A stretch of DNA of 64,000 bases, from positions 6,324,001 to 6,388,000 of the forward strand of contig NC_091992.1 of NCBI RefSeq assembly GCF_044704955.1, in the 5' to 3' direction. This DNA comes from Pristiophorus japonicus (lineage: Eukaryota). This document shows, piece by piece, positions 25,818-56,373 of this stretch (position 1 is its first letter; each line of letters opens with the position of its first letter). The position numbers and the translations under genes are program-made. Below the pieces are notes generated by a model, which worked only from the letters and a program-made list of their open reading frames with translations, searched no databases and was not told where the DNA came from.

Positions 25818-26141
<324 letters not shown>

Positions 26142-26985
26142 TAGACCTTGCAATGAGGCTGAAATAATAACCTGGGGATCCTCTTACCCTGGGTAACTAT
26201 TATCTTCACCTCGCAACAAAAGCCAAATTATATGAGCATCGACAGATTTAGGCACAAATCGTAAATGTATCCGTCAATATTTTAAAATAGCCAATGAATT
26301 TCCATTTCCTTTATTAGTTTTTACAGCATTGTGCGGTAATCTTCCCTCTAGGTTTGCATGGCACTGTGAGAAAGTCTATCCTCATTACATTTGGAGGGCA
26401 CTGTGCAGGTGCTAAATTATCTGCGATGTGAGTTTTATTGGGGGGAACCTAACCCCCCCCCACCCCGCCCTGGATAGAAAGTGACCATCCGTTTTACACC
26501 CCGCCCCATTGGCCAACGTGTAAAACAGGCAGCCAATCCGTTCGTGTGACTTGAATTCAGGGACCGTCAGGATCTCCGCCATCAGGTCACGTTCAGTGGA
26601 GTCTCGCTTATACTGGCGCTGATTCAAACCCCGCCCACATCGACTGGTCTGGCAGCGTTCATCGTAACAGGTCAGGTCACATGAAACTTCCAACACTCCC
26701 AGGTTGCAGCATGATCACTCAAAGTTGATCTAATTTGAACAAATCCAATGCAAACACTCGAGTGCGTGGTCTGACTCACAATGTTGCATCAGATTCCCCC
26801 CTCCATCTCCCTCCTTGCCTATTCACATTGTGCCTCCACACTCAGTACCTTTGATCTCCATGCCCAGAATCAATGCAAGGCCAGGCAATACAAAAGCAAG
26901 ATACTGCGGATGCTGGAATCTGGAATCAAAACAGAAAATGCTGGCAATCTCAGCGGGTCAGGCAGCGTCTGTGGAGAGGAAGCAG

Positions 26986-27022
26986 AGTTAACGTTTCCGG
27001 TCGACGACCCTTCGTCAGAACT
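26986..27022 (-). ncRNA. Second minimal hammerhead motif copy, with one stem II mismatch
   Basis: Reverse complement AGTTCTGACGAAGGGTCGTCGACCGGAAACGTTAACT. Confidence 0.55.
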
Positions 27023-27400
27023 GGAGAGTGTTCGGAAAGAACACATTTTTAACAAGCACCGAAAGGGAGAGGGGAAGGAAGAACAAAAGGGAAGGTCTCT
27101 GATAGGGTGGAAGGCAGGAGAGATTAGAGAGTCAAAAGAGATGATGGGCCAAATAGAAATGGTAATGGCAGGAGTTAGAAAAACATTAGTCAGGATCGGG
27201 TGTGAATGGCGGAGTAATGACCAGCTGCCATTAGAGACGAGGAGAAAAAAAGAAACGTGCTCGGGGGCAGGGGTGGGTGGGTGGGGAGGGAAGGGAGCCA
27301 AAGATTGGCAGCGGTTACGCTCTGAAATTGTTGAACCTGATATTGAGTCCAGAAGGCTGTAACGCGCTTGTTAAGAATGTGTTCTTTCCGAACACTCTCC

Positions 27401-27437
27401 AGTTCTGACGAAGGGTCGTCGACCCGAAACGTTAACT
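27401..27437 (+). ncRNA. Minimal type I hammerhead ribozyme motif (Penelope-associated), sense to BCAS3
   Basis: AGTT-CTGACGA-A-GGGTC-gtc-GACCC-GAAA-CGTT-AACT: catalytic core, 5-bp stem II, 4-bp stem I, palindromic AACGTT in place of stem III. Confidence 0.65.
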
Positions 27438-28367
27438 CTGCTTCCTCTCCACAGACGCTGCCTGACCCGCTGAGATTTCCTGAAGGTAAGTTAATTACTG
27501 GATTGGGAGATTTTGGCCAATCAGAGGTCGATGGGATTGCCAGCTGTCTGCTTATGGGTTGGACCATCCGTTTTTTCAAGTAAACTTTCTAGAAAATGGT
27601 TCAATACAAACCAGTTACCAGAAGCCTTTTGATCTATTCCCCTTACCTCTGTGCCTCGTGACGTGGAGGTTGTCATGTTACTGGGGTTATTAAGGTTTTA
27701 TTAACAGCAAAGCAACCATCAGAACGCGCCCCTTGACCCCACCGTCTGCCTGGTCCTGATCCCGACCCCCTGTCTGGAATTGGAATTGGAATTGGCAAAT
27801 CCTACAGCCGATTGCTGCTAACTTGACAATCTTAACATTCTGTCTTATCTTCCAAAGCAATCCAGCAGCCTCGTTACGTAATTGGAATTCCTCTCAATAA
27901 CTTGAGCTAGTTGCTGAGTCTGGTATGTTTTGATCCGTTAACTTATTGGTGGTAATTATAAATTGGGATGGGGGGTATGGGTGGAATGAGGATGGAAATG
28001 TGTGTTGACAGAGACTGCACTGGCTCAAATGCTCTTTACTACTCTCATGGAGAAGGTACTCAGGCCAGTAGATTGTTGCTAAATAATGCCTTCATGAAAA
28101 ACATTCAAGAATGTGCTGACAGGCTTCCAGTCTGACATCCATTAATCCATTTTTAGTGTAAGAACTGCAGAAATGCTGGGAGATAGGCCGGGCAGCCTCG
28201 CTGTATCTTATCATGTGACTCTCCAACTCCGAGGACCCCACATAATACCCCCTCCCCCACAAGCAGCATTGTCAATGTACAACCACCTTATTTGGCATAT
28301 TTAGAACAGAAAGCCTGAGGCCTGCAGATGACCAGGAGCTGATCTGTTGCTGGGGGGAGGGGGATTC

Positions 28368-28820
28368 TTCTCAGGCAGTCTCTCGGAGTTGAGGATGACT
28401 TGCTTCCACACTAACATGAGTTCTAAGGTGGCTGATGAGTCGGGATCTACAGACTCTGTCGCAGGTGGTGGTTGAAGGGATGGGTGGGTGGGGTGCTTGG
28501 TTTGTCGTACGCTCCTTCCGCTGTTTGTACTTCCGCGTGCTCCCGACGAAGAGACTCGAAGTGTTGCCGAATGCTTCCTTCTCCACTTTGAGCGGTCATG
28601 GGCCAGGGATTCCCAAGAGTCGGTGGGGATGTTACATTTCTTCAGTGAGGCTTTGAGGATGTCCTTGAAGCGTTTTCTCTGCCCTCCTGGGGTTCACTTG
28701 CCGTGACGGAGCTCAGAGCAGAGTGCCTGTTTCGGGAGTCTTGTATCAGGCATGCGGACTACGTGGCCCGCCGATCGGAGCTGATTGAGCGTGGTCAATG
28801 CTTCGATGCTGGGGATGTAT
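28368..28820 (-). mobile_element. RTE-clade LINE 3' fragment
   Basis: Minus strand ...RWAGHVVRMPDTRLPKQ...RKRFKD...CDRVCRSRLISHLRTH. Confidence 0.85.
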
Positions 28821-29550: not shown

Positions 29551-29829
29551 ACCGTTCCGTGTGGAGGTGAGGGAGGAGCAGGCCCATTGTCCCACTATCC
29601 CATTTGCCCACCTGTTGATAACTTCAAGGACTCCCCCAAATTCTGTCCTCTTCTCCTGAAGCCGGTGATCACGGGGAGATATAATTCCACCCACACCGAA
29701 CCTCTGACACCTGCACACACGCATTGTGCAGCCAGGCTCACCTGCTATCGTTCAGGAGCAGGAACCCTGACCGATTTCTTTCCCACTGCCTAGCCCAGGC
29801 CACAAATGCTGCCTGGCCTAGAGAAAGTA

Positions 29830-30775
29830 GAGCAGCCCTGGACAACGTGGACCACTTTCCATACCTCGGGAGCCTATTATCAACAAGGGCAGACATCGAC
29901 TGCGAGGTTCAACACCGCCTCCAGTGCACCAGCGCAGCCTTCGACTGCCTGAGGAAAAGCGTGTTCGAAGATCAGGCTCTCAAATCTGCCACCAAACTTA
30001 TGGTGTACAGGCCTGGGCTAGGCAGTGGGAAAGAAATCGGTCAGGGTTCCTGCTCCTGAACGATAGCAGGTGAGCCTGGCTGCACAATGCGTGTGTGCAG
30101 GTGTCAGAGGTTCGGTGTGGCTGGAATTATATCTCCCCGTGTATGTATCCTCCTATGTATCTCAGAGATGTGGACCATATACAGTAGACACCTCAAATCG
30201 CTGGAGAAATACCACCAACGATGTCTCCACAAAATCCTACAAATCTCCTGGGAGGACAGATGCACCAATGTTAGCGTCCTCGACCAGGCCAACATCCCCA
30301 GCATCAAAGCACTGACCACACTCGACCAGCTCCGTTGGGCGGGCCACATTGTTCGCATGCCTGACACAAGACCCCCAAAGCAACACTCTACTTGGAACTC
30401 TTACACGGCAAACGAGCCCAACGTGGGCAGAGGAAACGTTTCAAGGACACCCTCAAAGACTCCTTGATAAAATGCAACACCCCACCTACATCTGGGAATC
30501 CCTGGCCAAAGATTGACCTCGATGGAGGAGGTGCATCCGGGAGGGCGCTGAGCATCTCGAGTCTCGTCACCGAGAGCATGCAGAACCCCAGCGCAGGCAG
30601 CGGAAGGAGCGTGCGACAAATCAGACTCCCCACCCACCCTTTCCTTCAACCACCGTCTGTCCTACCTGTGACAGAGACTGTAATTCCCATATTGGACTGT
30701 TCAGTCACCTAAGAACTCACTTTTAGAGTGGAAGCAAGTCTTCTTCGATTTCGAGGGACTGCCTATGATGATGAG
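29830..30775 (+). mobile_element. RTE-clade (BovB-like) LINE 3' ~0.8 kb, interrupted at 30010-30141
   Basis: LDNVDHFPYLGS...LRWAGHIVRMPDTR...GQRKRFKDTLK...SHLRTH; tail gactgcctatgatgatga. Confidence 0.9.
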
Positions 30776-53494: not shown

Positions 53495-56373
53495 GGGCTA
53501 GAACCTCCACTTTCTTTGCCTGCTTAACGCCCATTTTACCACTGAAATGACGTATAACCCCCATATATCGCCCATTTTAGCACAAAATGGAAACTGGCGG
53601 GCATTTTTCGGAAACTTATCGCCGAGCATTACTTTCTCCTTGTGCTTAACGGCGAGAAAAAATATTACCGCCGGCCCACTTTTTGGGGGCGGAATCAGCA
53701 GAATGGGCAAATTCAACGCCCATAATATCGCCCGGCATTACTTTCTACACAGAATTAACACCGAGATCCAATATTAACGCCCGCCCACTGTTTTTTGTCG
53801 TAAAGAGCATATTTACCCAAACTAGCGGGCATGGAGATCGCCCATCGTCAATTTCACCACCTTGCACACATATCGCCCACAATAAGTGGAACTAACCAGA
53901 ACGAATCACAGTGGTTTGGACGCCATGTTCTAGATCACACGTCGTGTCCTTTAAAAGGCTGCTATGCTTCAACCTTAGCGGAGTTCGGATGTACTCTGCA
54001 GGTCGTTGGAGTTGATGTGAACATCTCTAAAAACATCTTGACCATACTGTGACCGATTGGAATTGAAGAGGTGTGTTTGTCGGGACATTCCTTATTTGTA
54101 AGCAATGGATGGAAAACATAGAGCTATTGCAATGTGGCCTGTCCTTTCTCACCCTCTCTTGGTGACCAAATATATGCAGCAGACTCGACATCGCCGAAGG
54201 AACGCTCCACTGCATTATGTGCCCAATGTAAGAAGTGACAGACAGATGAGGAGGACCAGACATTACACTCCCTGCAAGTACAAGGAGAAGCATTCTTACC
54301 TCGACTTGCCTGACACCATCTGCCTTTGGAGACTGCACTTGCACAAAGAGGTTATCATTGAGGTATGCCAGCTGATAAGGACAGATCTGCAGCCTGCCAG
54401 CACCATCAGTACTGCACTGTCCGTCGAGGTCAAAGTCACCGCGGCACTGTCGTTCTACGCCTCGGGTTCTTTTCAGACCACGGCTGGCGACATTTGCGGA
54501 CTTTCTCAGCATGCCACACATCGCTGCATTAGACAGGTCACTGAAGCCCTGTACGCACACAGGAGGGACTTGATCAGCTTCCCTATGACCAGGGAGGCAC
54601 AGAGTGAGAGGGCTCTAGGAGTCTCCAGAATTGCAAACTTCCCCAAGGTGCAGGGACCAATAGACTGTATGCACATCATGATGCTGAGGTTTTCAGGAAC
54701 CGCAAGGGATTCCGCTCCCTGAATGTCCAGCTGATTGTCGACCACCAGCAAATTATACTGACAGTGAATGCTCAATTTCCGGGCAGCATCCATGATGCTC
54801 ACATCCTGCATGAGAGCACTGTATCTGACTTGTTTAACAATGAACCACAAGGTCAATGCTGGATGCTTGGGGCAAAGGATATGGCCTCGCCACCTGGCTG
54901 ATGACCCCCCCTGAGTGACTCCCACACCGAGGCCGAGAGGTGATACAACGAGAGCCACAGAGCAACTCGCAATATCGTGGAGAAAACCATTGGAGTGCAG
55001 AAGCAGCACTTTAGATGCCTGGACCACTCAGGAGGTGAGCTCCAATACCACCTTGAGCAGGTAGCTCAGGTCATGGTAGTGTGCTCCATGCTACACCAGT
55101 TGGCTGTCAGGAGGGGACAAAAATTGCTTGATGAGTCTGACAGTCCACCTCACCAGAGAGAGGAAGAGAAAGACGAGGAGGCAGATGCTGACATCATCCC
55201 AGACAATCAGGCTGATGCTGAAGCCATGCCCCTGCCCTCCTATAGACTGCATGAAAGGCCCCATGGTGGCATGATAGCTGCAAGAGCCTTACATCAGGAG
55301 CTCATCAATGATCGCTTTGCCTGAAAGAACGTTGGTGTTATTTACAAGGCTGACACACTGCTGGGTGTGCAGGTCAATGGTGAGCATCACCTTGGTGACA
55401 GTTAAAGTTTAAGTTGATTGAAGTCAAGTGTGATTATACCCTTTGATGTTAAGGAATCACCAGCATGTAATGGTGCAGCTATCTGAGCCAATGTGCTACA
55501 AGGTTTTATTAAATAATAAACATTTAAACCGAACAGTAGTCTGAAATCGTCAGTTTTTCTGTACAAACCAACCCTCCCCCTCCACCCCCTCACCCCCCCT
55601 ACCCCCCGCTTCTCCTCCCCACCTCTACCCCTTCCCCTCCTGACTCCAAGCCGCCTGGCTGAGGAGGTCCTCAGGCGATGCTTCATTGGGCGGGGGGAGG
55701 GGAGGCGGGGGTGACGGCCGAAGTGCTGCTTGGGACGGGAGAGGACGGTCCCGAGGTGGGAACATGTTCCGAGCCATAAACAAGATGTTGCTGCTGGCTC
55801 TCGTGTGGTTGGCAATGGGGGTGCGTCACCTTGGGGTGCAGTGCGGGGCTCCGGGACCACTGGGAGACCTCTGCCACCAGTGTTCCTAGCTACCTGCTCC
55901 AGGGCCTCCTCCATCCCTTTCATGTTATATCTTATTTGTTGGACAAAAACTAGGTGCCAACTATGTTCTTGGTTCTTAGTAGGCTTTTTGCTGCTGGTGA
56001 ATCTCCATCGTTCCTCCCACAACAGCCAGGCAAGCACACACCACAGCCACACACACTTTCAGTGCCTCTGAGCTCCCTCCATCTCTGTCTCCTCTTCTGC
56101 ACAAGTCATGATGACCCTTGACCTCCTGAATCGCGGGAATCGAACGTTGCCATGCCGTTGCTAAGGACGGCCACATTTTATGGCAGAACGTCAAAAAAAT
56201 TTTACGCTAACGCCCATATGATATCGCTCACGGTAACGGCCATTTTCAAAAATGGAAACTAGGTGTTTTGAGAATGGGCGAGAAGCCGACGATCTGAAAA
56301 CCCCTTTTTAACTCCCACGCTGGAAATAACGCCCATTTTTGGGCGATAAGTACAAAAGTGTAGATTCTAGCCC
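53495..56373 (+). mobile_element. PIF/Harbinger DNA transposon (~2.9 kb, defective), inserted in an L2 fragment (53282-53492 / 56375-56570)
   Basis: TIRs GGGCTAGAACCTCCACTTT / AAAGTGTAGATTCTAGCCC; TAA on the left; subterminal (A/T)CGCCCAT repeats; transposase homology. Confidence 0.92.
54105..55324 (+). pseudogene. Harbinger (HARBI1-like DDE_Tnp_4) transposase, frameshifted
   Basis: ALSFYASGSFQ, QGPIDCMHI, FRNRKGFRSLNVQ, FPGSIHDAHIL, YNESHRATRNIVEKTIG..KQHFRCLD; frameshifts near 54680 and 54872; in-frame TGA near 54941. Confidence 0.9.

What the first reader, a model, noticed from the sequence alone, without database searches (positions are those of the whole stretch)
26890..27480. Penelope remnant puts a hammerhead ribozyme motif and its own antisense copy into the BCAS3 intron
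Seen: a 115-bp inverted repeat (26943-27057 vs 27366-27480, about 3 mismatches); each arm contains AGTT-CTGACGA-A-stem II-GAAA-CGTT-AACT; between the arms the minus strand ends an ORF in ALQPSGLNIRFNNFRA*. Established: Penelope-like elements carry minimal type I hammerheads in their pseudo-LTRs, often have an inverted partial pLTR at the truncated 5' end, and motifs lacking stem III are thought to work as dimers through a palindrome. Inference: the copy with the perfect stem II (GGGTC/GACCC) is sense in the BCAS3 pre-mRNA, about 1.3 kb after the exon, and the upstream arm could sequester it in dsRNA, giving a self-silenced intronic ribozyme. A single sense monomer with a GUU site may simply be inactive.
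Basis: partly seen in the sequence, partly recalled or inferred. Interest (0 to 1): 0.7.

Follow-up and report, generated by a model that had tools for sequence, protein, structure and literature searches.

The report
Penelope retroelement stub in BCAS3 intron
This is a short leftover of a common jumping gene that landed in the last intron of a shark-type BCAS3 gene and is missing at the same spot in two related species; its tiny self-cutting RNA motif is real but is predicted to be locked in a long hairpin and is likely an idle passenger.

Summary
The 115-bp inverted repeat (3 mismatches), both hammerhead motifs and the ORF end are as described. The element is a 606-bp, 5'-truncated copy of an RT + GIY-YIG Penelope-like family (Neptune/Nematis-type linker motif) with a head-to-head inverted pseudo-LTR arm, a described insertion shape. 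It is ordinary: 931 exact copies of the intact motif genome-wide; 7 of 31 family loci inside BCAS3 are head-to-head pairs; contigs of two related species bridge the empty site; the motif decays at the flank rate in other copies; no second intact sense motif exists in the 925-kb gene to dimerise with. Folding predicts full masking by the upstream arm, so 'self-silenced' is physically plausible, but likely a by-product. The GUU site is the family norm. New here: the sense arm also brings a branch-point-like motif and splice acceptor 31 nt before a host GTAAGT donor (cryptic exon; not seen in contigs), and solo motif-spanning copies lean antisense in introns (3:12 in BCAS3, 2:7 in four other genes; replication not significant). 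This scan noted similar stubs before (151 findings, at least 22 genomes).

The parts
25936..26103 (+). BCAS3 penultimate coding exon (host context)
   Evidence: contigs X5-X7 stop at 26103 and X7 continues into the last exon
26876..27481 (.). whole insertion, 606 bp, as bounded by the empty site in relatives
   Evidence: X8 record 23 and X20 record 16 join 26875 directly to 27482
26876..26886 (.). 11 unexplained bases at the left end; no clean target-site duplication
   Evidence: family match starts at 26887; longest shared word between flanks is 4 nt
26887..27362 (-). main body: end of the ORF, 3' pseudo-LTR and tail of the Penelope-like element
   Evidence: same sequence follows the RT/GIY-YIG frame in L163, L164
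26887..26923 (-). approximate 30-40-nt 'tail', present on this arm only
   Evidence: many of the 40 sampled copies end near body position 425-445 or 470-476; tail described in PMC8557442; boundary approximate
27315..27362 (-). last 15 codons and stop of the element ORF (after the GIY-YIG domain)
26943..27057 (-). left arm: pLTR part with the hammerhead, antisense to BCAS3; carries all 3 arm differences
26986..27022 (-). antisense hammerhead motif with broken G10.1-C11.1 pair (26998)
27366..27480 (+). right arm: inverted partial pLTR, sense to BCAS3
27401..27437 (+). intact minimal type I hammerhead motif, predicted cut after 27433 (GUU)
   Evidence: features as in PMC4209133
27432..27454 (+). 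branch-point-like TTAAC, pyrimidine tract and CAG brought by the element; inside the 115-bp stem
   Evidence: sequence
27455..27491 (+). candidate 31-nt cryptic exon (27455-27485, would read D-A-A-stop) ending at a host AAG|GTAAGT donor (27486-27491); use not seen
   Evidence: 1 of 2 such acceptor-donor pairs in the intron under my rule; one search lists no joint to 27455

Best explanation
This is one 5'-truncated insertion of an abundant endonuclease-bearing Penelope-like retrotransposon, absent at this site in two related species, whose inverted pLTR arm likely arose during insertion and whose hammerhead motif is likely an inactive passenger in the BCAS3 pre-mRNA. Shown: family identity, copy number, empty site, common shape. 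Inferred: both arms were copied from one template in one event (they share 3 non-majority bases); in the pre-mRNA the arm transcribed first would pair with the sense arm into a 115-bp stem that hides the ribozyme core, cut site and the neighbouring splice acceptor; even unmasked, a motif without stem III would need a second ribozyme or the element protein, and none is on hand in cis; the intron is spliced out and degraded as usual. The stem is a likely A-to-I editing substrate, untested.
For: Family: 10,313 DNA candidates, 40 scored; 12,989 candidates for the RT piece, 150 scored; natural 541- and 538-residue stop-free frames in L163 and L164 hold RT motifs, a CX4CxxC linker and the GIY-YIG end, end in the same C-terminal word and are followed by this pLTR; 44% identity to an RT + GIY-YIG protein P0142. 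Motif is common: 931 exact matches, 450/481 by strand, control 0. Shape is common: 7 head-to-head pairs of 31 loci in BCAS3 and 2 of 14 in four other genes; described in PMC8557442 and PMC3846280. Empty site in 2 of 4 related runs laid, flanks about 9% different. Neutral decay: in 22 copies the core differs from the majority as often as the flank (CpG 25/176 vs 13/88; non-CpG 24/638 vs 62/1618); at the arms' divergence an unhit 37-nt motif has about 0.6 chance. No partner: a strict descriptor finds 1 sense (this one) and 1 antisense motif in 934 kb. Masking: arm duplex -229.5 kcal/mol vs -7.8 for the hammerhead-like monomer; mean arm pairing 0.96; stem II probability 0 in the whole element. 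Alone, stem I has probability 0.03-0.14 and the predicted homodimer pairs through stem II, not the ACGU palindrome. Literature: single minimal motifs showed no cleavage and dimers low cleavage (PMC4209133); the Anolis motif needed the element protein (PMC11167929). A contig of X7 joins 26103 to the last exon.
Against: All 3 arm differences fall in the antisense arm and the sense arm keeps the majority base (chance 1 in 8, not significant). This is the only intact sense motif in the gene and it is fully masked (n=1). A motif on both strands is less common among intact copies than pairs in general: 0 of 40 by BLAST, 1 of 40 by profile search (L065, weak piece); 3 of 40 have any inverted piece. 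Solo motif-spanning copies lean antisense in introns, which hints that sense copies are not wholly neutral. Pfam matches of the genome's own frames are below the curated cut-offs (GIY-YIG E 0.0016-0.032; RVT_1 E 0.011; none for L013 and one L015 frame). X12 skips the region with 607 letters between (483 expected for a plain empty site) and X13 shows no bridging record in the part printed. No cleavage, editing or structure was measured.
Confidence: 0.85

Rival explanations
1. Survival filter: sense-oriented pLTRs harm host transcripts (by cutting, or by the acceptor that sits next to the ribozyme), are purged from introns, and copies like this one persist because their own antisense arm hides those signals. 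The element has no function, but the masking matters.
For: Solo copies that span the motif: 3 sense vs 12 antisense in BCAS3 (p=0.035, subset chosen after looking), 2 vs 7 in 600 kb of four other genes under a rule fixed beforehand (note; p=0.18), pooled 5 vs 19 (p=0.007, includes the discovery set). Other retroelement pieces in BCAS3 show no clear skew: CR1 RT 48/51, RTE 18/16, L2 10/10, CR1 C-end 70/92. A preprint reports fewer hammerhead-bearing retrozyme copies in Xenopus introns than between genes (10.64898/2026.07.22.740005, parts 1-2).
Against: All solo copies: 8 vs 15 (p=0.21) and 5 vs 7 (p=0.77). The replication alone is not significant and one of four genes had no copy. Ribozyme, acceptor and any promoter or insertion preference cannot be separated. 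At least 2 BCAS3 pairs have a sense arm whose motif region is not overlapped by the partner (6120991, 6138304). No intergenic baseline for the pair rate was made.
Confidence: 0.2
2. One reading: a regulated, self-silenced intronic ribozyme that can be unmasked (for example by editing or a helicase) and then cuts the BCAS3 pre-mRNA as a dimer or with the element protein.
For: Intact core in sense orientation 1.3 kb from the donor; family sequence is present in many contigs of the spliced-looking runs X5-X7, so partners in trans could exist; protein-assisted cleavage was shown for an Anolis element (PMC11167929).
Against: Site empty in two relatives; no cis partner; only 4+4 bp would hold a trans dimer; predicted folds are inactive even without the arm; core decays neutrally in copies; spliced product across the intron is present.
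Confidence: 0.05
3. The relevant signal is splicing, not cutting: the sense arm creates a 31-nt cryptic exon (27455-27485) that would end BCAS3 in D-A-A-stop, 49 residues short, and the antisense arm represses it.
For: TTAAC, a 15-nt pyrimidine tract, CAG and a host AAG|GTAAGT donor 31 nt on; 1 of only 2 such pairs in 46.9 kb; acceptor unpaired 0.66 without the arm, 0.00 with it; alternative C-termini at this junction occur among the BCAS3 hits.
Against: About 0.8 such pairs are expected by chance from 23 acceptor-like and 7 donor-like sites (my arithmetic); the rule was set after seeing the site; 31 nt is short for an exon (own knowledge); no joint to 27455 among the 9 listed, and X7 skips it; no BCAS3 hit ends this way.
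Confidence: 0.07

Closest known systems
EN+ Penelope-like insertions with inverted 5' pLTR and tail (PMC8557442 Fig. 2; Adineta Pen2a and Pen2 subfamily, PMC3846280)
   Same: 5' truncation, inverted partial pLTR at the 5' junction, one-sided tail, RT + C-terminal GIY-YIG in longer copies
   Different: no clean target-site duplication found; only 15 codons of the ORF remain; clade assigned by motif, not by tree
Minimal type I hammerheads of metazoan PLEs (Cervera and De la Pena 2014, PMC4209133)
   Same: CUGANGA, extra base between 9 and 10.1, G10.1-C11.1, GAAA, palindromic 15.2-16.2, no stem III, short stem I, in the pLTR; that paper also notes motifs 100-700 bp apart on opposite strands
   Different: stem II 5 bp with a 3-nt loop; U at position 17; no tandem partner; activity untested
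Conserved intronic ribozymes: amniote hammerheads (RECK and C10orf118 names recalled) and CPEB3 HDV-like ribozyme (review PMC6765202)
   Same: ribozyme motif in sense orientation in a vertebrate intron
   Different: those are conserved across species; this one is a recent multi-copy insertion, absent in two relatives, lacking stem III
Inverted Alu pairs in primate introns (search listing)
   Same: two opposite repeat copies forming intronic dsRNA that can be edited or hide splice signals
   Different: here both arms likely come from one insertion event; no effect shown

Membership tests
EN+ Penelope-like element | single ORF with RT and C-terminal GIY-YIG endonuclease | tested here: met
   In longer copies of the same family (L163, L164), aligned over residues 358-890 of RT + GIY-YIG proteins P0137/P0142 at 45-47%; P0142 passes both Pfam cut-offs, the genome's own frames match below them. 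The window copy keeps only the last 15 codons.
EN+ Penelope-like element | pLTR after the stop, 5' truncation, inverted partial copy, tail | tested here: met
EN+ Penelope-like element | target-site duplication | tested here: not met
   longest shared word of the flanks 4 nt; insertions without one are also described (PMC3846280)
Neptune/Nematis clades | CX2-5CxxC motif in the RT-EN linker, plus two Cys between GIY and YIG | tested here: met
   C-x4-C-x2-C and two Cys before YIG in L163; criterion from PMC8557442
Neptune clade specifically | RT phylogeny with named references | not tested
PLE minimal hammerhead | core boxes, bulged base, G10.1-C11.1, palindromic 15.2-16.2, NUH site, stem I | tested here: met
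   sense arm meets all; antisense arm fails G10.1-C11.1
PLE minimal hammerhead | second motif in cis for the dimer | tested here: not met
   1 intact sense motif in 934 kb spanning BCAS3
PLE minimal hammerhead | self-cleavage | not testable with these tools
   needs in vitro assay or raw reads; only contigs were offered
Rfam hammerhead families | covariance-model match | tested here: not met
   none among 6 matches at E<=5
Conserved (exapted) intronic ribozyme | orthologous conservation across species | tested here: not met
   empty site in X8 and X20
Non-LTR retrozyme | tandem direct repeats each with a hammerhead | tested here: not met
   copies are inverted, not tandem; definition from 10.64898/2026.07.22.740005

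The most novel reading that the evidence does not exclude
Penelope pLTRs are harmful in the sense orientation of shark introns because they carry a hammerhead and a splice acceptor back to back; solo sense copies are purged, and head-to-head insertions like this one slip through because the element's own mirror arm hides both signals in dsRNA. The inverted insertion shape would then be a built-in stealth device, and the strand skew a genome-wide readout of whether these minimal ribozymes act in vivo.
Probability: 0.18. Interest if true: 0.55.

Novelty: new member of a known kind. Interest (0 to 1): 0.17.

Why it matters
As a single locus it matters little: one of thousands of stubs of a known class. 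Its use is as a test case. Whether minimal PLE hammerheads cut in living cells is open (PMC4209133, PMC11167929), and a genome with at least 931 intact motifs allows a strand-skew test in introns. If sense copies are purged unless masked, that would be indirect evidence of in vivo activity (or of cryptic splicing) and would explain why inverted stubs accumulate in genes.

Tried and rejected
Rfam scan: no hammerhead; a SOX2OT_exon3 match at 27645-27916 (25.7 bits, cut-off 70) taken as chance. Pfam on the BCAS3 exon frame and on the L013 frame: nothing. Sequencing runs: no RNA holder listed; X5-X7 are not on record as RNA, their contigs merely behave as spliced; lack of intron cover and lack of listed letter changes in them say nothing on editing or expression (tables were cut, 45 loose ends and 1,687 pieces not shown). 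No raw reads were offered, so RNA ends at 27433 and editing could not be tested. Idea of an ancestral host cassette exon (26846-26875 plus 27482-27485) interrupted by the insertion: no BCAS3 hit of 120 listed shows that peptide after the junction (only those matching my anchor pattern were read), dropped. Target-site duplication: not found. GUU as a sign of decay: rejected. A first BLAST-based strand count suggested a strong skew; the profile search weakened it; both are reported. Lunse et al. 2017 (PMC5785218) is not held; I saw only its title in a reference list and the review's summary. A search for GUU cleavage rates gave 1 listing, not read; that GUU is a slower site than GUC is recalled. 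Searches for a printed strand skew of Penelope copies ('Penelope','orientation bias','introns'; 'shark','Penelope','intron') showed no such study in the listings; this is two searches of an open-access library, not proof. No supplements were read; those of PMC4209133 (motif alignments) may list shark motifs. Search of earlier findings by sequence: nothing.

Full report
1. Observation. The repeat finder gives arms 26943-27057 and 27366-27480, 115 nt, 97% complementary; there are 3 mismatches. The sense arm holds a 37-nt motif at 27401-27437 with 4-bp stem I, CTGACGA, an extra A, 5-bp stem II, GAAA, C-G and GTT, cut predicted after 27433. The antisense arm has G for C11.1. The minus strand ends a frame as stated. 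The exon at 25936-26103 is BCAS3; the protein maps to C16:5,472,566-6,397,178 on the + strand, and the element sits in the last coding intron of about 46.9 kb. Rfam has no hammerhead match here (0 of 6 matches).

2. What it is. A DNA search of the own genome (5.9 Gb; cartilaginous fish by the BCAS3 hits) gave 10,313 candidates, 40 scored, mostly 87-89% identical over the main body. In other copies the sequence continues upstream into a GIY-YIG-type C-terminus and RT (12,989 candidates, 150 scored). Of 8 long loci fetched, L163 and L164 have natural 541- and 538-residue frames that end in the same word and are followed by this pLTR; they align to RT + GIY-YIG proteins P0137 and P0142 at 45-47% and L163 shows a C-x4-C-x2-C linker. 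P0142 passes Pfam's RVT_1 and GIY-YIG cut-offs; the genome's own frames match below the cut-offs. By the criterion in PMC8557442 the linker points to Neptune or Nematis; no tree was made. So the window holds the last 15 codons, the 3' pLTR and tail on the minus strand (26887-27362) and an inverted partial pLTR at the truncated 5' end. The two arms share 3 bases that differ from the majority of 48 copies, one of them seen in 1 of 48, so they likely come from one template (or later conversion).

3. How special is it. The intact motif occurs 931 times exactly (450 forward, 481 reverse, control 0), and its GUU site is the family norm. In BCAS3, 31 family loci were found: 7 head-to-head pairs including this one, 1 weak tail-to-tail pair and 23 solo; four other long genes gave 2 pairs of 14 loci. 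Among 40 loci on C1, taken from the first 41 of the 100 places listed (one skipped because already held as L009), 3 had an opposite-strand piece within the 3 kb; a motif-spanning piece on both strands was seen in 0 by BLAST and 1 by profile. Laying contigs of four related species' runs, X8 (record 23) and X20 (record 16) join 26875 straight to 27482 with more than 250 letters each side, about 9% different from the window; X12 skips the region with 607 letters between; X13 shows no bridging record in the printed part; all four hold the family in thousands of contigs. The insertion is therefore younger than those splits (precise loss in both relatives is the unlikely alternative). In X3 both junctions are present and no empty-site joint is listed; it may be the assembly's own sample. 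In 22 copies chosen by overall likeness the core has decayed at the flank's rate, and an intact motif at this age has about 0.6 chance.

4. How it likely behaves. Predicted, not measured: arm duplex -229.5 kcal/mol against -7.8 for the hammerhead-like monomer; in the whole element stem II probability is 0 and mean arm pairing 0.96; core, site, branch-like motif and acceptor are all paired with the arm and partly free without it. The antisense arm is transcribed first. Without the arm the motif prefers a misfold (stem I 0.03-0.14) and its predicted homodimer pairs through stem II. A strict descriptor finds only this sense motif and one antisense motif in 934 kb, so there is no cis partner. In PMC4209133 (parts 1-2 of 4 read) a single minimal motif did not cleave and dimers cleaved weakly; in PMC11167929 (parts 1-2 of 4 read) the Anolis motif needed the element protein, and no RNA-seq reads began or ended at the site. 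Contigs of X5-X7, not on record as RNA, stop at the exon ends, and X7's continues with the first 30 bases of the last exon: the normally spliced product exists. Best reading: idle passenger (0.85).

5. (a) The sense arm brings TTAAC, a pyrimidine tract and CAG, and the host gives AAG|GTAAGT 31 nt later; inclusion would end BCAS3 in D-A-A-stop, 20 nt before the last junction. It is 1 of 2 such pairs in the intron under a rule set afterwards, about 0.8 expected, and no joint to 27455 is listed. All solo copies: 8 vs 15 and 5 vs 7, not significant. Loci touching only the 5' part of the profile or shorter than 30 positions were left out by rule. Control retroelement pieces were near even except CR1 C-ends (70 vs 92, p=0.10). 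This is suggestive only, and cannot tell ribozyme from acceptor or insertion preference.

6. Comparison. The shape is textbook: passages of PMC8557442 and PMC3846280 describe 5' truncation, adjacent inverted copy and tail; PMC4209133 mentions motifs 100-700 bp apart on opposite strands and thousands of minimal motifs in coelacanth and Xenopus. The review PMC6765202 (passages) notes that functions of conserved intronic ribozymes are unproven; this locus fails their defining conservation. The preprint 10.64898/2026.07.22.740005 (parts 1-2 of 5) reports retrozyme depletion in Xenopus introns; I saw no strand analysis in those parts. Papers otherwise seen as listings only. Earlier notes of this scan hold 151 findings with these words in at least 22 genomes (unchecked AI notes).

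7. Verdict. Real feature, known kind, likely neutral. Interest 0.17. Most novel reading left open: masking as a survival filter for sense-oriented pLTRs (probability 0.18, interest 0.55).

Noticed in passing
window 29670-29801 / 30010-30141: A second, younger-looking inverted repeat in the same intron: 132-nt arms, 99% complementary, around 208 nt of a LINE-like repeat, nested between two opposite LINE-like fragments (28366-28818 and 30292-30771, 71-85%). The arms have only one other weak match (80% over 64 nt) in the genome search, so likely a local inverted duplication; another strong dsRNA candidate.
   Followed up: partly
window 27432-27491: Element-derived branch-like motif, pyrimidine tract and CAG placed 31 nt before a host GTAAGT donor; candidate cryptic exon with an early stop.
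   Followed up: partly
L107 / G000:C16:5986902-5987366 (also L004): A second copy with an intact hammerhead motif in BCAS3, antisense, about 0.7 kb after an exon.
   Followed up: no
window 26968 joined to 27421 in runs X5 and X6: A contig at depth about 180-210 shows a fold-back junction of this family with 7 extra letters; it comes from another locus, which may be a well-transcribed inverted stub.
   Followed up: no
window 26876-26886 and 27363-27365: 11 bases at the left end and 3 at the inversion junction match neither the family nor the empty site cleanly; the junction may derive from a 4-nt microhomology, not resolved.
   Followed up: partly
window 27645-27916 (-): Weak Rfam match to SOX2OT_exon3 (25.7 bits, cut-off 70, E 0.0018), in flank that aligns to relatives; taken as chance.
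   Followed up: no
G000:C8:217508286-217511549: Two matches to BCAS3 residues 208-241 on another contig, on opposite strands about 3 kb apart, 70-79% identical.
   Followed up: no
window 54027-55027: Frames resembling a Harbinger-type transposase by eye (recalled resemblance, not tested).
   Followed up: no
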